64,000 nucleotides of DNA. It comes from a virus. Its lineage: Duplodnaviria > Heunggongvirae > Uroviricota > Caudoviricetes. The stretch covers positions 47,519 through 111,518 of IMG/VR virus record IMGVR_UViG_3300015177_000008. One strand, 5' to 3'. The translations under genes were made by a program, and so were the position numbers. The notes under the pieces are model-generated. The model had not been told where the DNA came from, did no database searches, and worked only from the letters and a program-made list of their open reading frames with translations. Every line of letters starts with the position of its first letter. Position 1 is the stretch's first letter. Positions 1 through 51,646 of this stretch are shown here, in pieces.

Positions 1-1537
1 CAGGTTTAAACGTCAGTTCAGTTTTGATCTGATCTTTCATTCCCGTGATTGGCTGTCCCTCGGCGTCTCGCAGAGACAGAACCAGCGGCTTTTGCGCACT
101 CCCGTTAGCAAGCATTTGGATACGGCTCTGGCCATCAAGCGTTAACGTAGTACGATCGGCGCTCATACCTGCTCCGGTAATGACCACCGCAGTCTGCACA
201 CGTTTCGAGGCATTGCCTTTGTTATCGTATGCAACCGCAGAGATCGCGTAATAATTGTCTTTGCCTGCACGATAAGCCGGGAGCGTTACTTGCCACTGGT
301 TACCCTGACCGGTAATTTTACCGCCTGCGGCCAGCAAAGACGGTGCTTCCCATTGCACATTTTTCAGGCCGTGAGTTGCTTTGCTGACCACGAGGCCAAG
401 AGACACCGTCTGCCCGCCCTTACCTTCAATACGGTCTGGCAAGGCAATACGGATCACCTCAGCTTTGCGATACTCAAGAACTATATTGTTATTACGTTCA
501 ACCAGATCATATCGGCTGCCTGCCAGTACCCGACGCTCGCGAATGCTGTCTGTATCGAGTTGTTTCTCCAGAGGCTCGCCAATCCGGTAGTTAACTTCCA
601 GGCCAAAGCGAGTGTCATTCTGACCGCTCTTGCCCTGTTTGTGCTCTGCACTCAGTGTCAGAAGAGGCACTGGCGTGTAATTCACTTCAGCGGTAATCGC
701 ATGTGGATCTTTCTGGCGTTTATCTTTACCAAACAGCCCAACTTCATCGCCATAATACTGTTCATACATCAGGCTTGCGCCAAGCTGCGGCCAGGCAGGT
801 AAATAACCCTCAGCACGAATATCCCAGCCATTCGCCGGGCGTTCCTGATAATCCTCAACATCCGGTGATTTTTTCCAGCCAGAAGCCCGGATATAACCAT
901 TGGCGCTCAGCTTAAGATAATCACGCCAGTATTCCGTACCAATACCAATGCGGGTATGACTACGAGATAAATCATGGTCAATAAAGGTATTCACCCCCGC
1001 CATCCAGTCATTACCTGAAAAATGACGCCAGCCAAAACCAATATTTGACTGAGTGCGATCGTCAGTGCGATGTATTGCCCCCTGAGTGAACAGCATATTT
1101 GTCGGCGTGTCATATATCGGATAAAGCATTTCCAGCGAAGAATCCTTCAGCGAGAAATCTTTATCGGCATTCAGTTTGACGCGCGCGGTGCCATATTTCC
1201 CGAGCCACTCCTGGATTTCCTGGGTGGCCTTAGCCGTAGCCATTCCGGTAACAAAGTTGCGAGTCGTATCGCTATCCGGCTGACTGCTTAAAAATTTACC
1301 GGCATTCGCGGCAACCGACGCGATATTTTTTTCTGTATTATTGTCAGTAGCAACCGCAGTATTTTCCGTACTTAGACGTGGCAAAGCCGCATTATGCGCT
1401 TGAGCTGTCATTGACGGTGTAAAAGTGACAGCTAATGGGAAAAGAACCTGAACAGAGATGTTTGCCCATGCCACACATCTAGCCAAGGCGGAATAGCGGA
1501 AACGTTGTTGTTTATAGGTTTTATTTAAACGTAACAT
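1..1537 (-). CDS. Intimin/invasin-family inverse autotransporter, N-terminal part; gene runs off the window start (partial)
   Basis: Minus-strand ORF from ATG at 1537 open to position 1 (not in track because no stop in window). Translation MLRLNKTYKQQRF... contains intimin/invasin beta-barrel-type motifs (YGTARVKLNADKDF, GIGTEYWRDYLKLSANGYIRASGW, GSRYDLVERNNNIVLEYRK). Confidence 0.7.
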   Translation of the reverse strand, partial: MLRLNKTYKQQRFRYSALARCVAWANISVQVLFPLAVTFTPSMTAQAHNAALPRLSTENTAVATDNNTEKNIASVAANAGKFLSSQPDSDTTRNFVTGMATAKATQEIQEWLGKYGTARVKLNADKDFSLKDSSLEMLYPIYDTPTNMLFTQGAIHRTDDRTQSNIGFGWRHFSGNDWMAGVNTFIDHDLSRSHTRIGIGTEYWRDYLKLSANGYIRASGWKKSPDVEDYQERPANGWDIRAEGYLPAWPQLGASLMYEQYYGDEVGLFGKDKRQKDPHAITAEVNYTPVPLLTLSAEHKQGKSGQNDTRFGLEVNYRIGEPLEKQLDTDSIRERRVLAGSRYDLVERNNNIVLEYRKAEVIRIALPDRIEGKGGQTVSLGLVVSKATHGLKNVQWEAPSLLAAGGKITGQGNQWQVTLPAYRAGKDNYYAISAVAYDNKGNASKRVQTAVVITGAGMSADRTTLTLDGQSRIQMLANGSAQKPLVLSLRDAEGQPITGMKDQIKTELTFKP

Positions 1538-2078
1538 TGACATAATTTCTTAATGAACGAGTTAACGAACATTTGCAACTGCGAGTAAAAGCATTTGCTT
1601 CCAGAAATATTTAGATTGGAGTGTCTATGCCCCCAACAGGGCCGCGAATGCTATCACAAACGAAAAAGTGCAACAACACATGAATTAACTGAGATTTAAT
1701 GATTGTTAGGCATCTATAACCAAAATGTTGCAACAACTTAAAATCAATGTTACTTGATAATGTATCCCAAATAACAGGAGGAGCTATTTCAGTACATGAG
1801 AGGATGATTATTCTAACAACATGGGAAGTAAAACATTTTTATTATTACATGATCCATAAATTAGAAATAAATGACCTAAGTCGTGAATAAAGCCTTTTAA
1901 GAAATAAAGTCAGCTCTATATCCAAAAAATAACTTTGAGATAATGAACACTATATCACATACCACATCAATTAATAACAACCTTCTACTTATATAACTTA
2001 GAAGTTGGTAGTTATTTATATAAATGCATTATAGTTTGCAAGTGTTTTTAAATGTTCATTTAACGATACTCATGATTT

Positions 2079-2567
2079 CTAATCAAAATTATTCAGTGCT
2101 TTTTTATTTATCATCTCGAACATTTTTAGTTCATCGTCAGATAATCCCTCCCAAACTTTCTTCATGATTATATTTTGCACACGTATCATTCTTTGTATAA
2201 ATAAAACTCCATCTGATGTTAAACATAAATTTTTACCTCGGCGATCGAGTTCATTATCAACACGTTTGATAAGGTTTTGCTTTTCTAAGATATCTGTAAT
2301 TCGCGTTATATTTGTTTTAGAAACCTGCAACAGGTTACTAATTTCAGATGGGGATAAACAATGACCATCAGTAAAATATAATAATGATAATGCCATAAAC
2401 ATGGTATTGTTTATTTTATGCTTCTCTAGCGCATCTGATATGACGTCCTGCATTTTATTGCTAATCCGGATACATAATTGCATTAGCAAATGCTCCTGAA
2501 CAGGATAATCTGTCTCTTTATTTTTTTGATAATCAAGTATTTTTTCTAGAAAAAGCACGTTTTTCAT
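2079..2567 (-). CDS. MarR-family transcriptional regulator
   Basis: 162 aa ORF with ATG at 2567; winged-helix MarR-like pattern (SPSEISNLLQVSKTNITRITDILEKQNLIKR...DRRGK); AT-rich gene flanked by AT-rich intergenic DNA. Confidence 0.55.
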   Translation of the reverse strand: MKNVLFLEKILDYQKNKETDYPVQEHLLMQLCIRISNKMQDVISDALEKHKINNTMFMALSLLYFTDGHCLSPSEISNLLQVSKTNITRITDILEKQNLIKRVDNELDRRGKNLCLTSDGVLFIQRMIRVQNIIMKKVWEGLSDDELKMFEMINKKALNNFD

Positions 2568-2741
2568 TGTTGTATCCGGTATTGAATAATCATCTCATAA
2601 AAACCATGTAGCCTGTGTGTGATATCTATGTCCCAATGAAACTGGTAAAATAAAGTATAGCAGTTCAAGATTCCTTGCGCCACCTGAATTTTCTACAGAT
2701 AATGCAAAACACATAGCAGTAAAACCTTTCGTTTATAAATT

Positions 2742-3041
2742 TTATTTTTTCCTATAAACATATAGTTCTCCATGCGCTTTCTTTCTGTCTCGGTGTATTC
2801 CCATTTCTTTTTCTATTCGTATCGTAGCTTTACGTAACTCTTTTGATGTGCTAACATCTTTGGCTGCAATGTTTTTTGGCACCGCCTGCTTCATGCAGCG
2901 GCGTATTTGTTCTCTAACATATATTCGTTGGTCTACCTGTCCTTCCTGTCGATAATCCATCAGTACTTCCTGCCAGCGAACAGCAGCCCTGCGCCATAGT
3001 CCTCTTTGCTCAAGATCTTCGGCCTTCTTGTCTCTAACCAT
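2742..3041 (-). CDS. PerC-like small transcriptional activator (putative)
   Basis: ATG at 3041 preceded by GGAGG; 99 aa basic protein with GLWRRAAVRW motif reminiscent of the PerC family. Track ORF 2742..3056 begins at an upstream TTG. Confidence 0.4.
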   Translation of the reverse strand: MVRDKKAEDLEQRGLWRRAAVRWQEVLMDYRQEGQVDQRIYVREQIRRCMKQAVPKNIAAKDVSTSKELRKATIRIEKEMGIHRDRKKAHGELYVYRKK

Positions 3042-3418
3042 TTCCCCTCCAAACAAACGTATGCTACAGATTAACTACCTAAAAATTGAGTTTAACACTA
3101 ACTCATGTAATTAATACTAATGCAAGAAAATATTCACTAATATTTTTATCTTTTAGTTATAAACTAAATTTACATGTGGCTGTTTTGCAAAATGTAGACT
3201 TCCTATATTTTTTATGAAATGATTAGGAAAATAAATTTATTTTATAGCCTTAACACTATGGTCAATACATTTCTTAACACCCAATGCCATCACGAATGAA
3301 CTAAGGAAAAGCGGAATGGCCTTTGACGTTAAAATGCTCTAACTGGAGGTTGTTCATGTGTTTTTCTCTTATCGTTTAGTTACTACATTCTTACACAAAC
3401 CAAGTAAGTGTTTACCTA

Positions 3419-43206: not shown

Positions 43207-45315
43207 TCACTTCAAAATGATACGAGATAGTTCAGTAACTACAGATGAACCAAGACTATCAACGCTCGTTACCAGGGCATGATTTGAGTAAAATCTCTCC
43301 GGTGCGTCAGTCATGATGCCAATTGCCATCAAATCAATGTCAGTCTGCGTTTCAATTTGCTTCGCAACCGAACGCAAATGAGCGTCAAAACCTCTCCCAA
43401 CAGCCCACGGCGCGCCATCGCTCAGAACAAGCATGATCTTCCTGTCCTCCAAGCGACCGGAAAATAACGATGCAAGGCTGGCTATGCTTTCACCATCCAC
43501 GTTATTAAGAAGTGGGAATGTGTAGCCTACGCACCCCATACGTGAGCGAACTTCGCGAGAATTTGCTTTTTCATTCCAATTTTTGATGATAGGTAGCATT
43601 AAAGATTCAAAGCGAGAGAACTCATATTTGATAGCCTTAAGTTCTCCTGCTGCCATATGACTGCCAAATGTAGTGAAGCCGGTGATAATGTTGGGAACAT
43701 TTATTCGATCAAGTGCATCGGCGATGGTATATGCACTTGCAAGAGCTAGTTTTATCGTTTCGCCACTCATTGAACCCGATAAATCAATCACTTGTTGAAC
43801 ACAGGCGTTAACGGCTTTAGATTCTTCTTTTTTACGAAACACGCGATCATCATTCATTGTTAATCTGTAGATACTTGAACCATGAATGCGCCCCCGACGC
43901 TGGCCAGGTATAAACTGAACTCTGTTTCTGCTTGCTATTGCACGTTCCAGGTCTTTTGCCAGCGTCGACGAAACACCTGACGAAAGGTGCTTTTCAATAT
44001 ATTTGTCGAAGAGTTGGTTGCCTTCAGGAACGATGCGATAACGGCTGATTGGATATCCACCTAAATCAATATCGGAGAATGTTTTAATAAGCCGTTTGAT
44101 ATGGGCTTCTGCCTGATCAATCGAGCCGATGAAGTCGTATGAGCGATTGTATGGCCTGTATTCGCTTTTCGAGCTTTCTGTTAACTCGCTTTTAATCGTT
44201 TCGGATAGCGCATCTTCTGTCATGCCTCCGACTTCATCTTCCATGCTATCCAACTCCTCTAAAGCCTCTTCCAGACTCATTTTTGACGGAGTTGGAATGT
44301 CTGAAGAGCCGTCTTCTGTCGATTTTCTTTTTTCGTGGTCAGTGGTAAATGATTCTGACGCCGCGTTATCAGAAGCACCAGAATCTGATACCTCTTTATC
44401 ATTTTCTGTATCATCGAATATTGTTTCTGATGATTCAGAATTATCTGAATCATCACTGTCGTTATTATCATGTTTGTGCTTACTGTGTGATTCTGATTTG
44501 ATAGATTTGTGATTATCTAACGCTGGGGGTGTCTCATGATCTTCGTTGTCTTCATTGTTTTCTCCAGAGGCATCCGTCTGGTCAGCGTCTGAAGGATCGG
44601 AAGTTTTTCCCGGAGCTGACTCCTTACCTTTGCTTTCACTTTCAGTGTCTTTGAGGATCTTAGCTATGGTCGCAGCCACCTTTACACAATCCTCGGTGCA
44701 AGACATGTTACGCACGGCCACATCGATACCATGTTCTTTTAATAATGAAATTGGTTTCTCAATGACAGGCCAATATTCATCCATGAAATCTACGAACGGT
44801 GCTTGGCCATCCCAGGCTCTTACAACCGGACAGAGAAAGAAGTTTAGAAAAAGCGCGCGCTGATCTTTACCACAATAAGCAATAGCCTCTGAAGCCTTTG
44901 GTTTAAAGACTTTTTCGATTATAAGGCGCTGAGTTGCCATCAGATTACGTCTTGTTCCGTTAAAGACCTGACCCATTTTTCGCTCGATGAACACGTCTTC
45001 TAAGGCATTCCATAGCGACCAGGAAGGAACGCGTCCTTTTTCTCTCATTTTGTTGGACACACGAATATCGGTAAACAAAATGTGAGCAACCTCATGATCG
45101 AGAAATCCGCGCACAGCATTCATCAATGCCGGTGTTGCGTTATCCGGGATTGATGGGATGTTTACGAGAATTGGCTCTCCATCATCGTTATAGCGTACAT
45201 AAGCGTCGTCCCCTCGTTCTGCAACAGGGATGTTTTTACCTGAAAGGAGAGCGACTACTCGTTTTACACTGTCACGGAAGTCCTGAACCTCTTTGATGGA
45301 ATGTTTTTTAGACAT
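43207..45315 (-). CDS. CobT-like protein with von Willebrand A domain
   Basis: MIDAS-type DLSGSM; long acidic Ser/Asp/Glu-rich low-complexity insert; degenerate class-1-like site upstream. Confidence 0.6.
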   Translation of the reverse strand: MSKKHSIKEVQDFRDSVKRVVALLSGKNIPVAERGDDAYVRYNDDGEPILVNIPSIPDNATPALMNAVRGFLDHEVAHILFTDIRVSNKMREKGRVPSWSLWNALEDVFIERKMGQVFNGTRRNLMATQRLIIEKVFKPKASEAIAYCGKDQRALFLNFFLCPVVRAWDGQAPFVDFMDEYWPVIEKPISLLKEHGIDVAVRNMSCTEDCVKVAATIAKILKDTESESKGKESAPGKTSDPSDADQTDASGENNEDNEDHETPPALDNHKSIKSESHSKHKHDNNDSDDSDNSESSETIFDDTENDKEVSDSGASDNAASESFTTDHEKRKSTEDGSSDIPTPSKMSLEEALEELDSMEDEVGGMTEDALSETIKSELTESSKSEYRPYNRSYDFIGSIDQAEAHIKRLIKTFSDIDLGGYPISRYRIVPEGNQLFDKYIEKHLSSGVSSTLAKDLERAIASRNRVQFIPGQRRGRIHGSSIYRLTMNDDRVFRKKEESKAVNACVQQVIDLSGSMSGETIKLALASAYTIADALDRINVPNIITGFTTFGSHMAAGELKAIKYEFSRFESLMLPIIKNWNEKANSREVRSRMGCVGYTFPLLNNVDGESIASLASLFSGRLEDRKIMLVLSDGAPWAVGRGFDAHLRSVAKQIETQTDIDLMAIGIMTDAPERFYSNHALVTSVDSLGSSVVTELSRIILK

Positions 45316-45413: not shown

Positions 45414-45626
45414 TTAACAGATTCTGACGGCTAAAGACCCGGAGCCGGTATTGAGAAGCGTGAAGCGTTTGTTGTTAAGTTCGAATATAAAGCCAGTTGT
45501 GTCATTCACACCAACCTGAATCTGCTCATTCGGTAGATCGGTGAGGATGTCAGCCACATACTCATCAGCTAATTTCTGTACGTGTCCGATCTCAAGAGCG
45601 ATTAGACTGGAAATAGTGGTTTTCAT
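45414..45626 (-). CDS. Hypothetical protein (70 aa)
   Basis: ORF. Confidence 0.35.
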   Translation of the reverse strand: MKTTISSLIALEIGHVQKLADEYVADILTDLPNEQIQVGVNDTTGFIFELNNKRFTLLNTGSGSLAVRIC

Positions 45627-45804
45627 TCAATCAATCCATTCTAACTTATACTATGGTAAGGAATACTACTAAAATTTGTATCAATACTGAATACATCTAT
45701 ATCAGATGCAAGTTAATTTTCTTACCTATTTTGGGCTGGTTTTTCTCCATGCATGGACCTTTGCTCGGTCTTACAAGTGCCTGCCGAAAAAAAATGATAA
45801 TAGC

Positions 45805-45832
45805 TTTACAACCCTAACCTTTGATGTAATAT
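45805..45832 (+). promoter_or_regulatory. Sigma70-like promoter of the HTH regulator gene
   Basis: TTTACA - 16 nt - TAATAT, immediately followed by the class-2-type palindrome ggtaagcacttacc. Confidence 0.45.
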
Positions 45833-45833
45833 C

Positions 45834-45847
45834 GGTAAGCACTTACC
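45834..45847. promoter_or_regulatory. Class-2-type palindrome at the regulator's transcription start region
   Basis: ggtaagcacttacc directly downstream of the -10 (autoregulatory position). Confidence 0.4.
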
Positions 45848-45878
45848 AGAGAGAATTAAACGCGCAAAGGTTGTAACA

Positions 45879-46265
45879 ATGTCTGACAACAAGATTGAAT
45901 TTATAGAAAGTCGCTATGCTGCTTTTATCGCAGGGCTGATTGAATCCTCACCTATGAGTCAGGCCCAAATAGCCAGACTTATTGGTTATAAAAATGCCAA
46001 CAACCTTTCTTTAATTAAAAGTGGCAAAATTCCTTTGCCTATCGATAAGGTTCGTCCGCTGGCGCTGGCACTGGGTATTGAGCCAAGTCGTCTTATGATG
46101 ATGGTGCTGGAAGAACGCCAACCCGAACTTGCAGCATTTTTATACAAAGAAGGCACTGCTCCTCTTAACGAGGACGAAAAACAGGTTCTTGCTGCATATA
46201 ACGAGCGATTCGGTAAAGAGAAAGGCGCATCACAAAAGGTTGTTGAGGCCATAAAGTCTCTATGA
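45879..46265 (+). CDS. XRE-family helix-turn-helix transcriptional regulator (candidate repressor)
   Basis: HTH MSQAQIARLIGYKNANNLSLIKSG; plus-strand gene convergent with the recombinase. Confidence 0.65.
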   Translation: MSDNKIEFIESRYAAFIAGLIESSPMSQAQIARLIGYKNANNLSLIKSGKIPLPIDKVRPLALALGIEPSRLMMMVLEERQPELAAFLYKEGTAPLNEDEKQVLAAYNERFGKEKGASQKVVEAIKSL

Positions 46266-47363
46266 AAAATTTACACGAATAAGCTCTGTTGATAGACGAT
46301 CTCCCTTAAATTTGTGGTCAATTTCGTCTAAATCCGGTTGCTCTACGATTGATGCGATGTACGTCGAGAAACTTTCTAAGGCGTCTCGCATCTCGTCCAT
46401 ATAATCGTGCCGGTCGTAGACCCGATCTATCCCCTCAAGACTGTGGTTCATGATTTTGCGTGATACCTCCTGGCTTATGCCTAATGCTGGGAAGTAACTA
46501 CGCGCAGTACGGCGCAAATCTCGGGGTGTAAATGGCTCAAGCTCCATCAGTTCTGGTCGTTCCAGAATACGACGTAATGCCTGGGCTATTGCCACTTTAG
46601 ACATAGGAAGGTCTTTCCCGATTTTTTTATTCGAAGGCACGAGCCACTGGCTGTCTTTACCGTATTCGAACAACTCTTCAATGCATGTGCGCATTAATGT
46701 GCTTAAAGGCAGAGAATGCTCACGGGCAGATTTGTTCCTCTTGCCTTGATTCCAAACCCCACGCTTAAGATTGAACTCACTTTTTTTAGCCCGCAGTACT
46801 TCGTCAGGTCGTCTTGCGGATACAAGACATAGCCTGGCCGCCCATTTTGTACCAGCGCACACATTGAAGTAGTCCCATATATTCCAGAACACCCATACCT
46901 CTGCGTCAGTCAGCTTCCGCTCGCGGGGCGTGGGCTTTGCGCCACCGGCAACTTTGTTAAGTGACATATCGTTTAACGGTGACACGTCTATCATCCCCTG
47001 GAAGGCGCACCAGCTAAGGAACTGCTTCATTAGAGAGAAAACGCGGCGGCCCATAACAATTTTGCCATCCAGTATTAGTGGGTTGACCAGTTGGTTCACC
47101 ATGAACCTATTAATGTCACTTACTTTTACATCGGCAATGTGCGGCAAAACATGTATCAAAATACAATGAACAGCGATCTCTGGCCGACGTCTGGTTATCA
47201 GCAGAGATAAGCGAGTGAATAACATGAATGCGTCCGAGAATCTCAAGTCATTGCTGACCTGGGAGATCATAACGGCCTGCATTTGAGATGCTCTTTCGAG
47301 ATACTCTATCGCCTCTTTTGAGGTGTTCTCCGCAGCGCGTGCTCTGTCAAAGCTATTTTTCAT
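46260..47363 (-). CDS. Tyrosine recombinase/integrase
   Basis: C-terminal catalytic region PFTPRDLRRTARSYF...NHSLEGIDRVYDRHDY (R, H-x-x-R and Y signature). Confidence 0.7.
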   Translation of the reverse strand: MKNSFDRARAAENTSKEAIEYLERASQMQAVMISQVSNDLRFSDAFMLFTRLSLLITRRRPEIAVHCILIHVLPHIADVKVSDINRFMVNQLVNPLILDGKIVMGRRVFSLMKQFLSWCAFQGMIDVSPLNDMSLNKVAGGAKPTPRERKLTDAEVWVFWNIWDYFNVCAGTKWAARLCLVSARRPDEVLRAKKSEFNLKRGVWNQGKRNKSAREHSLPLSTLMRTCIEELFEYGKDSQWLVPSNKKIGKDLPMSKVAIAQALRRILERPELMELEPFTPRDLRRTARSYFPALGISQEVSRKIMNHSLEGIDRVYDRHDYMDEMRDALESFSTYIASIVEQPDLDEIDHKFKGDRLSTELIRVNFS

Positions 47364-47573
47364 ATGACAATCACCGAGTTACGCCGATGCACTGTATAAG
47401 TAAACAGTATATTAGGCATAGATTCTTATAGGATCAAGAGTAAAAGTAACTCATTTTCAGCAATGATTCCATACATAGTAGGTATGGAATCATTTTGACG
47501 TTGTTTTTTGAATTTTAAGGGAAATGGGAGTGAGTTTGGTGGGAATAAAAACGGCTCCTGTGAGCCGTTAAAA

Positions 47574-47819
47574 TCAGAGGGTGCTGACGTATGCAGCCAG
47601 TTCTGTGTATCCGCCAATCGGCTGGCCTTCGATCAGCACCTGGGGGATAGTCTCTACCGGTTTACCAACAATTTCACTTAGTTTTTCCTTGTCGATACCG
47701 GCAGTGGTGATGTCGATGTACTCATAATCACCGTAGCCATGTCCCTTTAGTTGCTTCGCTAGCTCGACCGCACGTTTGCAGTATGAGCAGTTATCTCGTC
47801 CGTAGATAGTGATCGTCAT
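47574..47819 (-). CDS. Glutaredoxin (NrdC/NrdH-like)
   Basis: ATG at 47819 after GAGGT; active site CSYC in MTITIYGRDNCSYCKRA. Track ORF extends upstream. Confidence 0.75.
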   Translation of the reverse strand: MTITIYGRDNCSYCKRAVELAKQLKGHGYGDYEYIDITTAGIDKEKLSEIVGKPVETIPQVLIEGQPIGGYTELAAYVSTL

Positions 47820-47861
47820 TGTTACCTCATAGAATTGATATGCAACTTTACTCACAAAGAA

Positions 47862-47883
47862 GATAGGTATGTGCATACTTATC
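47862..47883. promoter_or_regulatory. Class-2 AT-rich palindrome
   Basis: gataggtatgtgcatacttatc between the glutaredoxin gene and the plus-strand membrane protein gene. Confidence 0.35.
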
Positions 47884-47993
47884 TTTGCAGTCTGCATTAT
47901 AAAGCTATTAAAGCCTCGATCAATCTATTAATTAAGGCATTGTTTGGTTAACATTACCCTAATATTTTATAGTTAGTAGAGTGAAATACATAC

Positions 47994-49256
47994 ATGCCTT
48001 TTTTAATTTTCATTATTATACTACTGCTCACCGTGATTTTTTGGGATTGGGTTGTTTTAAATGGTCAAATTGTTGGAACATTGGCTACAGCATTTGCTTT
48101 TATAGCAACAGCATGGAATGCCTACGAAGCGAGAAAAAGTGCAAAAGCAGCTTTTTCAGCCCTTCAATTAACAACAGAATCATTGTTCGAAATGCGAAAG
48201 AGTGCATTTAAACAATGGTTTGATTCCTTATTAAATCAACATGATGAGCTATGTCTTCTTGCAAAACAAATTATCGATAAACGCAAAATTAATTTAAACA
48301 GCGATGAGTTACATAGACTATATTACCCATTGGTAAAACAGCATGAGGTAATACAGTATGTGAAGCATATTATTAATATTTTTGAGTATGTGGATAGTTC
48401 ATTTTATATTGATGGGGAATGTCTAAAGGAAAAAAGAGCGTATGTGTCACAATTAATTTTCAAAATCCCACCTCAGATGAAGTTGATTATTGCTATCTTT
48501 GGATTAAAGATCGATTATTGTGAACATATTAATTCGGGAAAACTGTGTTGTTTATTAAATAAATATGATTTTTTCAATGATGAAATATTTTTTGATGATG
48601 CTTATTCAGATATGCCTTATCTGGATGCATTCATAAACCTTAGATTCAACAAAATATTCAAATCTCGAATGATAAATTATTTTGATAATATCATTAAAAG
48701 TTATTATGTTCCATCGGACGTTAAAAGGGACTGGATGTTTCGAGACCCAAAGCTCGTACCGTCGGTTCTTATGAATTATAAAACTCCTTGTTCTCCTATA
48801 ATTAATGATTACTTTGAGAAGTTGCCTTTACATGTAAGAGACTACTTTGAGAAAGTACTTAAAACTGCGCATGATAGAGTTACTAATTTTGATGCTTACA
48901 TCCCACGCCTTATTGGTTGTTCAATCGTACAACGTTACGAAGATGTACCTTCCGAAAAAAACAGGTTAAATGACAGGAACGATGTAATAGCTATGGCTGA
49001 AGATTACATCGAGAAAAGGAGATCTAATCAACTAGATTACAGACTTGAAAATATATACTTTAAGAGTGACAAAGATATAATCCCAGGCCACAATTTGATT
49101 GTGGCATTTGATGACTATGAATATAAATTAGCACTAATTAAGATAAATGAAAATAAAGATAACGGCAGTCTTTTACATCGAATTTACATTGAATCTTGTG
49201 ACATGGTTAAAGAATATAAGCGCGAAATATTAAAACTGGGCGACTATGTAAAGTAA
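47994..49256 (+). CDS. AT-rich membrane-anchored protein of unknown function
   Basis: 420 aa; two N-terminal TM helices then an Ile/Lys/Asn/Tyr/Phe/Asp-rich domain; GC clearly lower than the backbone; followed by a strong terminator. Confidence 0.5.
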   Translation: MPFLIFIIILLLTVIFWDWVVLNGQIVGTLATAFAFIATAWNAYEARKSAKAAFSALQLTTESLFEMRKSAFKQWFDSLLNQHDELCLLAKQIIDKRKINLNSDELHRLYYPLVKQHEVIQYVKHIINIFEYVDSSFYIDGECLKEKRAYVSQLIFKIPPQMKLIIAIFGLKIDYCEHINSGKLCCLLNKYDFFNDEIFFDDAYSDMPYLDAFINLRFNKIFKSRMINYFDNIIKSYYVPSDVKRDWMFRDPKLVPSVLMNYKTPCSPIINDYFEKLPLHVRDYFEKVLKTAHDRVTNFDAYIPRLIGCSIVQRYEDVPSEKNRLNDRNDVIAMAEDYIEKRRSNQLDYRLENIYFKSDKDIIPGHNLIVAFDDYEYKLALIKINENKDNGSLLHRIYIESCDMVKEYKREILKLGDYVK

Positions 49257-49271
49257 ATTGCACTGTTCAAC

Positions 49272-49302
49272 AAAAAAGGGGCCGAAGCCCCTTTGAATTT
49301 TG
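49272..49302. terminator. Bidirectional rho-independent terminator
   Basis: AAAAAA ggggc cgaa gcccc TTTGAATTTT. Confidence 0.7.
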
Positions 49303-49368
49303 CGCTGAAAAAAGTGTTGCTAGGATGTTAGCAAGCTATGGTTAAGAACGTCTGCCGTAATTGTCTAT

Positions 49369-49446
49369 CACAGCGTTGAGCGGTCTGGTTTATGTTAGCG
49401 GAGTCTTAATCGAGTTGATTAAAAGGCCAAACCGCTCAACGCTGTG
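49369..49446. repeat. Long hairpin A (16-bp perfect stem, 46-nt loop), 2 nt after tRNA-Ser
   Basis: cacagcgttgagcggt ... accgctcaacgctgtg. Confidence 0.55.
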
Positions 49447-49448
49447 TC

Positions 49449-49535
49449 TGGCGGAGAGTAATGGAATCGAACCATCATCGCTTGCGCAATGGGACGGTTT
49501 TCAAGACCGCTTGAGCACCATGCTCCCTACTCTCC
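49449..49535 (-). tRNA. tRNA-Ser (anticodon UGA), type II
   Basis: Manual fold: acceptor GGAGAGT/ACTCTCC, anticodon loop CTTGAAA, long variable arm, T-loop TTCGATT, discriminator G, encoded CCA. Confidence 0.7.
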
Positions 49536-49679
49536 GGCCGTTGTGGTGGCCGGTACTGAATCTCCGGCATACGGTGCAGCCAATTAGGACTACGGACGAT
49601 CACCGCTCGCGAAAGGGAAGATTTGCGGCCGCATTTCCCTAACATCCAAGAAAGCTATCGCATCAGTCTGCGAATCCAC

Positions 49680-49759
49680 CACAACGGTAAGATCACTACC
49701 TTTCGACCAGTCATTGTGCACATGAACGACGATTAACCGTAATGATCTTATCGTTGTGT
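49680..49759. repeat. Long hairpin B (16-bp stem, 1 mismatch)
   Basis: cacaacggtaagatca ... tgatcttatcgttgtg. Confidence 0.5.
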
Positions 49760-49809
49760 TGTGAAGCCAGATGCTTATCTTCTGGTTGCTTCAAAGAGCT
49801 GCACTTCCT

Positions 49810-49897
49810 CACAACGGTAAGAGCACTGGTCTGACTCTATCGATTTACGGGCTTGTGGGTCAGTATCGCCGATTCGCCCAATGCTCTTACCTGTTGT
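49810..49897. repeat. Long hairpin C (16-bp stem, 1-nt bulge), 2 nt after tRNA-Thr
   Basis: cacaacggtaagagca ... tgctcttacctgttgtg. Confidence 0.5.
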
Positions 49898-49899
49898 GT

Positions 49900-49975
49900 T
49901 GGTGCCGGTTAACGGGATCGAACCGCTGACATCCTGCTTACAAGGCAGGCGCTCTACCAACTGAGCTAAACCGGC
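49900..49975 (-). tRNA. tRNA-Thr (anticodon UGU)
   Basis: Manual fold: acceptor GCCGGTT/AACCGGC, D-arm GCTC..GAGC, anticodon stem CCTGC/GCAGG with loop CTTGTAA, T-loop TTCGATC, encoded CCA. Confidence 0.8.
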
Positions 49976-49977
49976 AT

Positions 49978-50052
49978 TGGCGATGGTGGGTGGATTCGAA
50001 CCACCGACCAGTTGGTTAACAGCCAACTGCTCTACCGCTGAGCTACACCATC
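49978..50052 (-). tRNA. tRNA-Asn (anticodon GUU)
   Basis: Manual fold: acceptor GATGGTG/CACCATC, anticodon stem GTTGG/CCAAC with loop CTGTTAA, T-arm GGTGG TTCGAAT CCACC, encoded CCA. Confidence 0.8.
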
Positions 50053-50319
50053 AATTCAGCACTGACAGTATTTATTACTCAACAGTGCCAATCGCGGCGG
50101 TGTTAGTTTCTGCCAGGAAACGCACCGCTACTTGCACTTTTCGTTAGTGCCAGACGCTTTCGACTTCGCTCAATAGTAGAAGGCAAAATCTTTAAGTAGA
50201 TGATGTTTCTGAGGACAGCACCTACTTTGTAATTTATACAATGTGATGTATGGAATCATTTGTTGTGAAAACAGGCACCAATGGCAACAGTGGTTAAACC
50301 TACACAACAATCCTGTCTT

Positions 50320-50441
50320 CACAACGTTGAGGCCACTACTCCGATTGAATGTTTGCCCAACATGTTACATATCAACGCTCGCCGGTATCTCTGTGAATAG
50401 AACCTTAGAATTGATAAAAATGTAATGGCCTCAACGTTGTG
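50320..50441. repeat. Long hairpin D (15-bp perfect stem, 92-nt loop)
   Basis: cacaacgttgaggcc ... ggcctcaacgttgtg. Confidence 0.5.
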
Positions 50442-50800
50442 TGCTGGCTAACCATACCAGCCGGGCTACGTCGCCGCTTTTTAACCCAGTATAAACGACA
50501 TAATTGAACAAAATGACGTAACAGGATGGGCGGTCAGTGGCTAAGAATCCGGGAGTCATATGGAGTTGAAAATATACCAACCGCCCATTCTGTTACTTCA
50601 TCGGAGGGAACATTCATGTTCCCTCCTGCGTTCTGCAATCACACTCGCTCAGTGTGTCCCATTTCGGTAACGAGGCTGGAAACTGACCTCGCTGGTGTTT
50701 GGCTTATTAGGCTACTGCCAGATAGACTTCTTCGTTTGCACTTGTATTTAAGTTCAAACAGTCGCGTCTCAACGAAAACAAAGTCATCTTATACACAAAA

Positions 50801-50822
50801 GATAAGTAAGTAAATACTTATC
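50801..50822. promoter_or_regulatory. Class-2 AT-rich palindrome (perfect 8-bp arms)
   Basis: gataagtaagtaaatacttatc. Confidence 0.4.
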
Positions 50823-50831
50823 AATATGTTT

Positions 50832-51122
50832 TTATTCGGTTGTGACTTTTTTGATCAAGGCCACGCTGCGACTAGGTGTTCTTGTAATGGTGGCAGTGAA
50901 TCGTTTCGCTTGGATAGTAATGGTTTCGTTCTCCTTAAGTTGCCCGTAGCGAGTTTCCACCAGGGTGCCAAGACGCCACAGACCATCATCGATACGTTTA
51001 TGACTAGCAAATTTAATCAGCAACAGTTTTACGACTAACTGACCTACGTAAAAGGCGAATGCGACTCCGGCCGCTAAGAAATAGGTGGCCAACCACCATT
51101 CCCAAGAAGTTAAATTGCTCAT
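50832..51122 (-). CDS. Hypothetical membrane protein
   Basis: 96 aa with N-terminal hydrophobic segment. Confidence 0.4.
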   Translation of the reverse strand: MSNLTSWEWWLATYFLAAGVAFAFYVGQLVVKLLLIKFASHKRIDDGLWRLGTLVETRYGQLKENETITIQAKRFTATITRTPSRSVALIKKVTTE

Positions 51123-51271
51123 TTTTTCACCTTTGTTTCATGAACTACCCGATACACACGCTTTCCGATGCACAGTGTTTTGGTTTTAAGTTCCTGCTTA
51201 ATTAAATCACGACAGATGCCGAAGCCGATAAGGAAGCCACCCATAAAAGCTAATGAGATGTATGGAATCAT
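51119..51271 (-). CDS. Small membrane protein (50 aa)
   Basis: MIPYISLAFMGGFLIGFGIC...; ATGA overlaps at both ends; GGAG before the ATG. Confidence 0.3.
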   Translation of the reverse strand: MIPYISLAFMGGFLIGFGICRDLIKQELKTKTLCIGKRVYRVVHETKVKK

Positions 51272-51483
51272 TTTAACGCTCCTGATTCTACTAATTGCTG
51301 TAGCAATACTTTCCCTTTATCAGTTAACTGGTAGTTGGCCGAACACCACGTTTCAGAAACGTTTGCAACCAACCCTAAACGCTCTAACTTAGCTCGCGTT
51401 TTAGGCTTCCAGTACTCAGGGAACTCCGGCCACTTACTGATTTCATGAAGCGTTTCCTTCTCCCGTTTACTTAATACGATCAT
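51268..51483 (-). CDS. Hypothetical protein (71 aa)
   Basis: ORF in overlap-coupled chain. Confidence 0.4.
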   Translation of the reverse strand: MIVLSKREKETLHEISKWPEFPEYWKPKTRAKLERLGLVANVSETWCSANYQLTDKGKVLLQQLVESGALK

Positions 51484-51646
51484 CCTTAATCTCCTTCAGG
51501 GTGTTGGTTATTTCTACAATGCGATAAATACGACCGCGTCTTTCTATAACACCGCTTTTAATGTAGTCATTGATGCAACTGGACATCACCACAATACCTA
51601 TGAAAAAACCAACTGCTAAAAATGCAATCATCCAGCCGAGCATCAT
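51467..51646 (-). CDS. Small membrane protein (59 aa)
   Basis: MMLGWMIAFLAVGFFIGIVVM...; overlaps both neighbours. Confidence 0.3.
   Translation of the reverse strand: MMLGWMIAFLAVGFFIGIVVMSSCINDYIKSGVIERRGRIYRIVEITNTLKEIKDDRIK

What the first reader, a model, noticed from the sequence alone, without database searches (positions are those of the whole stretch)
47994..49256. AT-rich membrane-anchored protein gene in the recombinase/tRNA accessory hotspot (candidate phage-exclusion or abortive-infection factor)
This is a single plus-strand gene with its own AT-rich promoter region and a strong terminator. Its base composition is much lower in GC than the backbone. It encodes a 420-aa protein with two N-terminal TM helices and no motif I recognise. 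It sits between the tyrosine recombinase/glutaredoxin genes and the tRNA cluster, a typical cargo position. Function is unknown; the defence role is a hypothesis from context only.
Basis: inference. Interest (0 to 1): 0.6.

Follow-up and report, generated by a model that had tools for sequence, protein, structure and literature searches.

The report
Divergent AbiC-like phage-defence gene cassette
This AT-rich gene on an E. coli phage-plasmid encodes a membrane-anchored protein that is a distant relative of the lactococcal AbiC/AbiP abortive-infection proteins; it sits in a slot where related plasmids swap such genes, so it is probably an anti-phage gene that standard defence-finding tools miss.

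Summary
ORF 47994-49256 (+) is intact and encodes 420 aa. Its GC is 0.318 against 0.452 for the window. It has an N-terminal two-helix membrane hairpin and ends at a stable hairpin terminator. It lies between grxA and tRNA-Ser on an SSU5-type phage-plasmid. No clear promoter could be shown.

"No recognisable motif" is true only for direct searches. Pfam, PADLOC and NCBIfam give no credible family hit for the protein itself. Profile methods place it in the AbiC/AbiP (Pfam putAbiC, PF16872) family:
- 20 of 34 homologues hit PF16872.
- hhalign against the PF16872-bearing clade gives probability 100 %, E 1e-46.
- An HMM built only from PF16872-labelled proteins scores it at 116 bits.

Relatives occur as single genes in a P2-like prophage, a lambdoid prophage and islands carrying known defence-protein domains. 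In sibling plasmids the same slot has sharp, shared junctions. It holds deeply diverged alleles of this family, an unrelated 302-aa gene, or a phage gp49-family gene.

The gene is under purifying selection (dN/dS 0.34-0.44). The N-terminal half is conserved and the C-terminal half is variable. The C-terminal half carries a 362-bp recombination patch.

Verdict: a new, divergent member of a known kind. The defence role is well supported by homology and context but is untested, and the mechanism is inferred.

The parts
47832..49268 (.). Exchangeable AT-rich cassette: upstream region plus the AbiC-like ORF
   Evidence: Similarity to ten sibling or related elements ends at window 47808-47831 on the left (47819-47831 in nine of them). 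It resumes at 49267-49273 on the right. GC drops from 0.50 (grxA) to 0.31 inside and rises to 0.45 after the stop codon.
47820..47993 (+). AT-rich upstream region (GC 0.305), the presumed promoter region; it also holds the divergent grxA promoter-like site on the - strand (47923-47896)
   Evidence: No + strand consensus promoter was found above chance. Only a weak TATAGT at 47968-47973 is visible by eye.
47994..49256 (+). CDS for a 420-aa AbiC/AbiP-family (putAbiC-like) membrane-anchored protein
   Evidence: ORF. (family assignment). (dN/dS 0.34-0.44). (AF2 model, pLDDT 85.6, pTM 0.72).
47997..48059 (+). Transmembrane helix 1 (aa 2-22)
   Evidence: Kyte-Doolittle 17-residue window means of 2.0-2.9. 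Helical in the model.
48066..48119 (+). Transmembrane helix 2 (aa 25-42), with small residues T32/A35/A38 nearly invariant
   Evidence: Hydropathy about 1.6. Conservation in A2. It forms the start of the long helix 24-97.
48105..48161 (+). Most conserved motif of the family: juxtamembrane ATAWNAYEARKSAKAAFSA (aa 38-56). The basic residues after TM2 predict a cytoplasmic location for the rest of the protein.
   Evidence: Invariant in alleles that share as little as 31 % identity overall. This is the highest conservation block in A2.
48306..48593 (+). Region equivalent to the Pfam putAbiC (PF16872) domain (aa 105-200), with conserved aromatic residues Y122, Y138, Y150, F193, F194, F199
   Evidence: PF16872 matches residues about 128-231 of homologues. 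These align to this stretch in hhalign. Conservation.
48594..49253 (+). Variable C-terminal half (aa 201-420), a candidate specificity or sensor region
   Evidence: Mean pairwise identity is 15 % here, against 34-53 % in the N-terminal modules.
48840..49201 (+). Recombination patch (aa 283-403). All 34 differences from the closest plasmid (NZ_CP117002.1) lie here; the sequence is otherwise identical.
   Evidence: Gene nt 1-846 and 1209-1263 are identical, and the 600-bp flanks have one mismatch upstream and none downstream. One search gives dS 0.10 in the C-terminal half and 0 in the N-terminal half.
49275..49294 (.). Bidirectional terminator hairpin that marks the right junction of the cassette
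47574..47819 (-). grxA glutaredoxin gene, the conserved left flank of the slot
   Evidence: PF00462. Annotated as GrxA in relatives.
49449..49535 (-). tRNA-Ser (UGA), the conserved right flank of the slot

Best explanation
The gene encodes a divergent enterobacterial member of the AbiC/AbiP (Pfam putAbiC) family. These are single-gene, membrane-anchored abortive-infection proteins. The gene is carried as a swappable AT-rich cassette in a fixed slot (grxA | terminator-tRNA-Ser) of an SSU5-type phage-plasmid of E. coli.

Shown here:
- It is an intact gene under purifying selection.
- It has an N-terminal two-helix hairpin.
- It is homologous along its full length to PF16872-positive proteins.
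- It behaves as a cassette with allelic replacement.
- Its N-terminal half is conserved and its C-terminal half is variable and recombining.
- Family members lie in prophage cargo sites and next to genes with defence-system domains.

Inferred:
- The resident phage-plasmid expresses the protein at a low level.
- The hairpin anchors it in the inner membrane, with the bulk of the protein in the cytoplasm. This follows from the positive-inside rule (R47, K48, K51) and from the cytosolic location reported for AbiP.
- The variable C-terminal half recognises a product of an incoming phage. In Lactococcus the trigger of AbiP is a major tail protein.
- The conserved anchor, juxtamembrane motif and aromatic-rich putAbiC domain then stop phage development. 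By analogy with AbiP this would work through non-specific RNA/ssDNA binding at the membrane. AbiP blocks phage DNA replication and the early-to-late transcription switch, and AbiC lowers capsid-protein production.
- The outcome is that the infection aborts and the phage-plasmid and its host population are protected from competing phages.
For: Family:
- 20 of 34 full-length homologues hit PF16872, with scores of 22-37.5 bits against a gathering cut-off of 22.
- PADLOC AbiC hits 4 of 34 homologues (best E 1.3e-6) and AbiP hits 3 of 34.
- hhalign of the gene's own clade against the PF16872-bearing clade gives probability 100 %, E 1.3e-46, over 381 columns.

Architecture:
- Two N-terminal transmembrane helices, as reported for AbiC (PMC13064643).

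Selection:
- dN/dS is 0.34-0.44.

Cassette and hotspot:
- Junctions are shared at 47808-47831 and 49267-49273 in ten relatives.
- The slot holds alleles with 95-87 %, 54 % and about 31 % identity, all with GC 0.31-0.33, in plasmids with near-identical flanks.
- Alternatively it holds an unrelated 302-aa gene or a gp49-family gene.
- SSU5 lacks the whole segment.
- 40 of 252 complete E. coli genomes that match the integrase-grxA segment carry this allele, always on plasmids.

Context of relatives:
- A P2-like prophage, between the tail-fibre assembly and sheath genes. This is the position of the P2 Z/fun gene (my own knowledge). The same prophage carries a TIR-domain gene.
- A lambdoid prophage, between antiterminator Q and the holins.
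- Next to genes with SIR2_2 (a faint precomputed hit) and DUF87 domains.
- Next to a gene with the Lamassu LmuB_C domain, in an island with an integrase.
- In an island with RelA_SpoT and HEPN-RES genes.

Modularity:
- TM2 and the juxtamembrane helix show 51-53 % mean identity, the putAbiC region 34 %, and the C-terminal half 15 %.
- A 362-bp recombination patch lies in the C-terminal half.

No enzyme signature:
- Family-wide conserved residues are mostly aromatic, plus H83, E66 and K69.
- There is no fold match in the PDB.
Against: - The window protein itself does not reach any threshold for PF16872, PADLOC AbiC/AbiP or NCBIfam. The link to the family is transitive.
- No member of the enterobacterial branch has been tested experimentally, as far as the searchable literature shows.
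- AbiC and AbiP themselves have no established molecular mechanism, and the review reports that their effects differ (PMC13064643). The mechanistic steps proposed here are therefore analogy.
- No convincing promoter or ribosome-binding site was found, so expression in the lysogen is assumed.
- The soluble part is 56 K+R against 56 D+E, so it is not obviously basic as a nucleic-acid binder might be.
Confidence: 0.6

Rival explanations
1. It is a superinfection-exclusion protein that acts at the envelope. From the inner membrane it blocks DNA entry or receptor function of incoming phages or related phage-plasmids. There would be no abortive, cell-sacrificing step.
For: It is membrane-anchored. 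It is encoded by a prophage or plasmid as an independently oriented cargo gene. The most conserved part of the family is the TM2 and juxtamembrane segment. Temperate phages commonly carry such genes; SSU5 has an annotated Cor-like exclusion protein elsewhere in its genome.
Against: Homology points to AbiC/AbiP, which act after DNA entry (PMC13064643). About 375 of 420 residues are predicted to be cytoplasmic (positive-inside rule, inference), and the periplasmic loop is only about 2-4 residues long. There is no match to known exclusion families in Pfam or PHROGs.
Confidence: 0.15
2. It is an accessory membrane protein unrelated to phage defence. Examples would be a plasmid-addiction or toxin-like factor, an anti-conjugation factor, or a host-fitness cargo gene. 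The 'Abi' family name would then be uninformative for this branch.
For: The function of PF16872 is labelled 'putative'. Only two distant lactococcal members have phenotypes (PMC13064643). A neighbouring variable slot carries a YafO toxin-antitoxin pair in a relative. Defence tools do not call the gene. A DefenseFinder survey of SSU5-type phage-plasmids lists no AbiC or AbiP in the part of its supplement that is held.
Against: Family members recur in prophage cargo positions and next to genes with domains of unrelated defence systems, in different genera and element types. The deep allelic series, cassette replacement and variable recombining C-terminal half are typical of genes in conflict with phages. 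No conserved partner gene that could act as an antitoxin is present.
Confidence: 0.17
3. It is a decaying or non-functional hitchhiking ORF in an AT-rich insertion.
For: Promoter and ribosome-binding signals are weak. Base composition is foreign to the backbone.
Against: The 420-codon frame is intact at GC 0.32. dN/dS is 0.34-0.44. Full-length alleles occur in more than 90 plasmid records and in several genera. The AF2 model is confident, with pLDDT 85.6.
Confidence: 0.03

Closest known systems
Lactococcus AbiC (also called Prf; plasmid pTN20) and the 'AbiC/P' group as defined in FEMS Microbiol Rev 2026 (PMC13064643); Pfam PF16872 putAbiC
   Same: Both are single-gene systems. Both have two N-terminal transmembrane helices followed by an alpha-helical extra-membrane domain. 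The gene is very AT-rich and is carried on a mobile element. The window protein is a profile-level, full-length homologue of PF16872-positive proteins. No solved structure or enzymatic motif is known for either (the review states the same for AbiC and AbiP).
   Different: The window protein does not itself reach the PF16872 or PADLOC AbiC thresholds. It has about 220 further, highly variable C-terminal residues beyond the domain that Pfam models. The host is a Gram-negative bacterium and the carrier is a phage-plasmid. No phenotype has been measured.
Lactococcus AbiP
   Same: PADLOC's AbiP model matches the same domain of three relatives (profile positions 111-185 of 223). AbiP is membrane-anchored and needs the anchor for activity. 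Its function was reported to depend on aromatic and basic residues, and aromatic residues dominate the conserved positions here. This last point about AbiP comes from my recollection of Domingues et al. 2008; the nucleic-acid binding itself is summarised in PMC13064643.
   Different: AbiP has one transmembrane helix and is much shorter. Nucleic-acid binding was not tested here, and the soluble part of this protein is not net basic.
Enterobacterial proteins annotated 'putative phage abortive infection protein' (for example P0012 of Citrobacter, P0033 and P0053 of Pectobacterium, P0084 of Enterobacter kobei)
   Same: They share the same architecture and length (430-465 aa) and the same conserved TM2 and ATAWxAxEARKSAKAA motif. 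They align over 381 columns. They are single cargo genes in prophages and genomic islands.
   Different: They share only 19-28 % identity with the window protein. They pass the Pfam threshold and the window clade (PHROG 18168) does not. Their genomic carriers differ.
Defence hotspots of temperate phages and satellites (P2 old/tin locus and P4 psu-int locus; PMC9122126)
   Same: A fixed slot between conserved genes holds alternative, unrelated or deeply diverged cargo genes, often AT-rich, that are exchanged by recombination in the flanks.
   Different: The element is an SSU5-type phage-plasmid. The slot (grxA | tRNA-Ser) did not come up in the papers retrieved and read here. Only three occupant types were seen among the loci I opened.

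Membership tests
AbiC/AbiP group (Pfam PF16872 putAbiC) | The protein itself matches the PF16872 model at or above the gathering score (22 bits) | tested here: not met
   hmmscan of the window protein gives no PF16872 hit even at E <= 1. Sibling alleles in the same slot reach 22.0-22.1 bits.
AbiC/AbiP group (Pfam PF16872 putAbiC) | Profile-level homology to proteins that do pass the PF16872 threshold, covering the domain | tested here: met
   hhalign probability 100 %, E 1.3e-46, 381 columns. An HMM from 26 PF16872-labelled proteins gives 116 bits, E 1.3e-31. 20 of 34 homologues hit PF16872.
AbiC/AbiP group (Pfam PF16872 putAbiC) | N-terminal membrane anchor (two transmembrane helices in AbiC, one in AbiP) | tested here: met
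   Hydropathy of residues 2-22 and 25-42. Helices in the AF2 model. The definition of the feature comes from PMC13064643.
AbiC/AbiP group (Pfam PF16872 putAbiC) | Stand-alone single-gene system with no conserved partner | tested here: met
   The cassette contains a single ORF between shared junctions. The neighbours of homologues differ in every context examined.
AbiC/AbiP group (Pfam PF16872 putAbiC) | Detectable similarity to the lactococcal AbiC and AbiP proteins themselves | tested here: inconclusive
   PADLOC AbiC and AbiP models hit 4 and 3 of 34 relatives (best E 1.3e-6 and 1.1e-4) but not the window protein. The lactococcal sequences were not retrievable, and the afdb50 fold library was offline.
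AbiC/AbiP group (Pfam PF16872 putAbiC) | Abortive-infection phenotype (reduced efficiency of plating and of centres of infection, with phage development blocked after DNA entry) | not testable with these tools
   This needs cloning and phage challenge.
Septu PtuB (HNH nuclease partner of the PtuA ATPase) | A significant match to PtuB that includes the nuclease core, and an adjacent PtuA ATPase gene | tested here: not met
   There is one weak hit (E 9.4e-4, 16.8 bits) over residues 30-128, which are TM2 plus the stalk helix, to the C-terminal end of the profile. Only 1 of 34 family members matches. No ATPase gene lies in the cassette.
Abi_C / AbiJ-type HEPN RNases (the 'Abi_C' C-terminal domain family; a similar name only) | Abi_C domain with the HEPN R-polar-X(3-5)-H motif | tested here: not met
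   No Pfam hit to that family appears in the window protein or in any of the 34 relatives. The family is described in PMC13590631 and is unrelated to AbiC.
Known superinfection-exclusion families (Cor, Imm, Sie-type) | A match to a curated model of such a family | tested here: not met
   Pfam and PHROGs give no such hit. The only strong hit is PHROG 18168, of unknown function, at E 1.4e-210.

The most novel reading that the evidence does not exclude
The enterobacterial branch of the AbiC/P family is a modular membrane sensor-effector. A near-invariant module made of the transmembrane hairpin, the ATAWNAYEARKSAKAA motif and the aromatic-rich domain would be the effector. The hypervariable C-terminal half would be a phage-protein sensor whose specificity is reshuffled by patch-wise recombination between alleles, as in the 362-bp patch at aa 283-403. 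Together with the unrelated 302-aa cassette, this would make grxA|tRNA-Ser a dedicated, so far undescribed defence hotspot of SSU5-type phage-plasmids that current defence finders do not see. It would also provide an E. coli model in which to solve the 30-year-old AbiC/AbiP mechanism.
Probability: 0.3. Interest if true: 0.55.

Novelty: new member of a known kind. Interest (0 to 1): 0.4.

Why it matters
- SSU5-type phage-plasmids are common in clinical E. coli, Shigella, Salmonella and Klebsiella. A recent DefenseFinder survey reported few defence systems on them.
- This gene family was found in at least 134 plasmid records and in 40 of 5426 complete E. coli genomes. Pfam, PADLOC and apparently DefenseFinder all miss it, so defence content in these elements is under-counted.
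- If the gene is active, phage-plasmid carriage could change the phage susceptibility of clinical strains. That matters for phage therapy and for competition between mobile elements.
- AbiC and AbiP were discovered in the 1990s-2000s and still lack a mechanism. A tractable E. coli homologue with natural allelic and C-terminal patch variants would offer a direct route to trigger and effector mapping.

Tried and rejected
- Direct family searches with the window protein. Pfam gave only ATP-synt_I at E 0.35. NCBIfam gave nothing. PADLOC gave only a weak PtuB hit. I rejected that hit because it covers TM2 and the stalk helix, only 1 of 34 family members shares it, and there is no PtuA gene.
- PDB sequence searches with the protein and with the family profile gave nothing meaningful.
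- tblastn against 50,697 phage records found no match to the protein. The family is seen on plasmid and prophage records, not in deposited phage genomes.
- I tried to reach the lactococcal AbiC by tblastn of a PF16872-positive relative against plasmids at E <= 10. No Lactococcus hit appeared. A third profile search gave only Enterobacterales.
- A literature lead with 27 'AbiC' occurrences (PMC13590631) turned out to concern the unrelated HEPN 'Abi_C' domain.
- Rfam on 47000-51500 found only the three tRNAs.
- The promoter scan was not above chance.
- Positive selection was not supported. dN/dS is below 0.5 in both halves of the gene. The clustering of substitutions reflects recombination, not accelerated nonsynonymous change.
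- The alternative 302-aa cassette and the occupants of the second slot have no Pfam, PADLOC or PDB match. The hotspot therefore cannot be called a defence hotspot on the basis of its other occupants.
Full report
**1. The observation**

The ORF is present exactly as described: 47994-49256 on the + strand, ATG start, 420 aa. Its GC content is 0.318 (GC3 0.28). The window mean for 1263-bp windows is 0.452 +/- 0.034. Only 0.6 % of such windows are lower, and all of them belong to one other island at about 1050-2800.

GC changes abruptly at the edges of the gene. It is 0.50 in grxA, 0.305 in the 174-bp upstream spacer, 0.318 in the gene, and 0.45 after the stop codon.

Residues 2-22 are strongly hydrophobic and residues 25-42 moderately so. 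In the AlphaFold2 model (34-sequence alignment, mean pLDDT 85.6, pTM 0.72) they form helices 2-15, 17-22 and 24-97. The rest is an alpha-helical domain with a few short strands near the C-terminus.

A hairpin with an 8-bp stem (5 GC) lies at 49275-49294, 19 nt after the stop codon. Its dG is -17.6 kcal/mol, z = -2.85 against shuffles. The T-run is better on the minus strand, so the hairpin is probably bidirectional.

The neighbours are as stated. A tyrosine recombinase (PF00589) lies at 46260-47363 and a glutaredoxin (PF00462) at 47574-47819, both on the - strand. tRNA-Ser, tRNA-Thr and tRNA-Asn lie on the - strand at 49449-50052.

The only part of the observation I could not confirm is a dedicated promoter. 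The consensus scan finds nothing on the + strand upstream, and overall hits equal the shuffled expectation. By eye there is only a TATAGT at 47968-47973 with a poor -35 and a weak ribosome-binding site.

**2. What the window is**

The region is 98.5 % identical to E. coli plasmid p108_MLI108-3 (NZ_CP117002.1, 108 kb, non-mobilizable, rep_cluster_488). Its flanks match the Escherichia phages Cyrano and CMS-2020a.

The parts of the window that could be compared (38315-62524) are collinear with the first 50 kb of Salmonella phage SSU5 at 69-86 % nucleotide identity. The window is therefore an SSU5-type phage-plasmid.

SSU5 has no counterpart of window 45414-49976. That segment holds a small ORF, an HTH regulator, the recombinase, grxA, the gene under study, tRNA-Ser and tRNA-Thr. 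In SSU5 the CobT-like gene and tRNA-Asn are about 165 bp apart.

**3. What the protein is**

Direct searches are uninformative:
- Pfam gives nothing credible.
- NCBIfam gives nothing.
- PADLOC gives only a weak PtuB hit over TM2 and the stalk helix.
- PHROGs places it in phrog_18168, of unknown function, at E 1.4e-210.
- No PDB sequence relative exists.

Homology searches found a small family: 7 proteins by word-indexed search and 41 cluster representatives among 1.84 billion by exhaustive phmmer. A profile of the close alleles then reached proteins that carry Pfam PF16872 (putAbiC, 'putative phage abortive infection protein').

I tested this lead in four ways.
- (a) Of 34 full-length homologues scanned individually, 20 hit PF16872, 4 hit PADLOC AbiC (best E 1.3e-6) and 3 hit PADLOC AbiP.
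- (b) The PF16872 matches score 22-37.5 bits against a gathering cut-off of 22. They fall on residues about 128-231 of the homologues, which corresponds to about 105-200 of the window protein.
- (c) hhalign of the window clade against the PF16872-bearing clade gives probability 100 %, E 1.3e-46, over 381 aligned columns. The homology is therefore full-length, including the hairpin and the motif ATAWxAxEARKSAKAA.
- (d) An HMM built only from 26 proteins that carry the precomputed PF16872 label hits the window protein at 116 bits (E 1.3e-31 for a nominal database of 1e6 sequences) over residues 1-377. It hits no other ORF of the window.

- Foldseek against the PDB and BFVD: nothing at E <= 0.001.

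The similarly named 'Abi_C' HEPN domain (PMC13590631) is a different family and does not match.

**4. The slot and its dynamics**

In ten sibling or related elements, similarity to the window stops at 47808-47831 (the grxA start codon region; 47819-47831 in nine of them). It resumes at 49267-49273, where the terminator hairpin begins. The cassette 47832-49268 is therefore replaced as a unit. Occupants seen were:
- This allele and close variants (95-87 % aa identity).
- Deeply diverged alleles of the same family: 431 aa (54 % identity), 432 aa (about 31 %) and 406 aa. All have GC 0.31-0.33 and all hit the family HMM at E < 1e-115. One of them reaches the Pfam threshold itself.
- An unrelated 302-aa protein with GC 0.29. 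It has its own allelic series in 58 plasmids.
- No + strand gene, only a gp49-family gene on the - strand joined to grxA.

Among complete E. coli genomes, 252 of 5426 match the integrase-grxA segment and 40 carry this allele. All matches are on plasmids. tblastn finds the family in 134 plasmid records from Escherichia, Klebsiella, Enterobacter, Salmonella, Pantoea and Citrobacter. It finds it in none of 50,697 deposited phage genomes.

**5. Selection and modularity**

dN/dS between alleles is 0.34-0.44, so this is a maintained coding gene.

Conservation is strongly polar along the protein. Mean pairwise identity is 53 % in TM2, 51 % in the juxtamembrane helix, 34 % in the putAbiC-equivalent region, and 15 % in residues 201-420.

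Against its closest relative the window gene is identical over nt 1-846 and 1209-1263. The 600-bp flanks are also essentially identical (one mismatch upstream, none downstream). All 34 differences (12 synonymous, 22 nonsynonymous) lie in nt 847-1208, which encode aa 283-403. This is a recombination patch, not local acceleration.

Across 113 family members the conserved positions are mostly aromatic (F72, Y122, Y138, Y150, F193, F194, F199, Y262), plus H83, E66 and K69. There is no catalytic-looking constellation.

**6. Context of relatives**

Full-length homologues occur as single genes in the following places:
- A P2-like prophage of Citrobacter, between the tail-fibre assembly and sheath genes. 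In P2 this is the site of the lysogenic-conversion gene Z/fun (my own knowledge of the P2 map). The same prophage carries a TIR-domain gene between the S and V homologues.
- A lambdoid prophage, between antiterminator Q and the holins.
- The Klebsiella chromosome, beside genes with SIR2_2 (a faint precomputed hit) and DUF87 domains, near smpB.
- A Citrobacter island with a Lamassu LmuB_C-domain gene, MC3 and CTD7 domain genes and an integrase.
- An island with RelA_SpoT, HEPN-RES and SMEK genes.
- Next to an N6-methyltransferase in a mobilisable island.

The neighbours differ each time, so the protein works alone. The company it keeps is typical of anti-phage genes.

**7. How it most likely works**

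Shown: the family assignment, the membrane hairpin, the single-gene cassette, purifying selection, the conserved N-terminal and variable C-terminal halves, and the defence-type contexts.

Inferred: the hairpin places both termini in the cytoplasm. This follows from the short N-terminus, from the basic residues R47, K48 and K51 after TM2, and from the cytosolic location shown for AbiP. The variable C-terminal half would sense a product of an invading phage. In Lactococcus a major tail protein triggers AbiP (PMC13064643). The conserved module would then arrest phage development. AbiP binds RNA in preference to ssDNA, blocks replication and blocks the early-to-late switch. AbiC lowers major-capsid-protein production (PMC13064643).

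I put about 0.9 on family membership in the broad sense and about 0.6 on an anti-phage role. I put no more than 0.3 on the specific sensor and effector assignment.

Rivals are envelope-level superinfection exclusion (0.15), a non-defence accessory or addiction function (0.17), and a dead ORF (0.03).

**8. Novelty and score**

This is a new, divergent member of a known kind: AbiC/AbiP-type single-gene abortive-infection proteins.

Several things are new here. The branch escapes Pfam and PADLOC. A DefenseFinder survey of SSU5-type phage-plasmids lists no AbiC or AbiP in the part of its supplement that is held. The grxA | tRNA-Ser slot has sharply defined junctions. The C-terminal half carries a recombination patch.

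It is not surprising to a specialist that a temperate element carries an Abi-like gene, and the mechanism remains analogy. I score interest at 0.4.

Noticed in passing
L005 3401-4309 (CMS-2020a), L008 2095-3003, L010 2899-3807; same slot as window 47832-49268: An unrelated 302-aa protein (GC 0.29) occupies the same slot. It contains an R-H-T-I-V-H stretch that could be a HEPN-like Rx4H motif. It is found in 58 plasmids of E. coli and Klebsiella, with its own allelic series (99 %, 56 %, 38 % identity). It has no Pfam, PADLOC or PDB match.
   Followed up: partly
window 47495-47593 (between the recombinase 3' end and the grxA terminator at 47550-47569): This is a second variable slot, empty in this window. 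Relatives carry insertions of about 0.9-1.2 kb here. Enterobacter plasmid L011 has a YafO-type toxin with a partner. Cyrano has a 184-aa ORF. L010 has 178-aa and 75-aa ORFs. CMS-2020a has a 136-aa and 202-aa pair. A 33-nt palindromic stretch at 47462-47494 borders the slot.
   Followed up: partly
window 49369-49446, 49816-49891, 50320-50441, 50513-50601: Several long, near-perfect hairpins (14-22-nt arms) lie in the non-coding tRNA region. Two of them (49816-49891 and 50320-50441) carry copies of a direct repeat, CACAACG(G/T)T(A/G)AG..CACT; a third copy lies at 49680-49697. A hairpin with a related arm (CACAGCGTTGAG) lies immediately downstream of tRNA-Ser. Rfam finds nothing but the tRNAs. 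They may be processing or terminator elements, or small RNAs.
   Followed up: partly
window 49536-49899: A 364-bp spacer separates tRNA-Ser from tRNA-Thr. In phage Cyrano the two tRNAs are only 8 bp apart (L004 3874 and 3883). The tRNA cluster itself is therefore polymorphic.
   Followed up: no
window 49426-49697: The tRNA-Ser gene and its flank are 96 % identical over 272 bp to the P1-type phage-plasmids P7 and D6. These are otherwise unrelated to SSU5-type elements, which suggests exchange of tRNA segments between phage-plasmid families.
   Followed up: no
window about 1050-3056: This is the only other island as AT-rich as the finding (GC down to 0.31). It holds a MarR-family regulator (2079-2567, - strand; PF01047). 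A PerC-family transcriptional activator lies next to it (2742-3056, - strand; PF06069). About 1 kb (1050-2078) has no ORF of 90 aa or more. It may be a regulatory or virulence-related cargo locus.
   Followed up: partly
window 43207-45315 (- strand): The CobT-like vWA protein (702 aa; PF06213 plus PF11775) carries a long acidic, Ser/Asp/Glu-rich low-complexity insert at roughly residues 225-345. The region aligns poorly to SSU5: 69 % identity on one side of it and a gap at window 44044-44671.
   Followed up: no
L012 2653-3477 (Citrobacter P2-like prophage): The prophage that carries the AbiC-like homologue P0012 also has a minus-strand gene with a CAP12-PCTIR TIR domain between the tail-completion (S) and baseplate (V) homologues. 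This makes two cargo genes in the late operon of one prophage.
   Followed up: no
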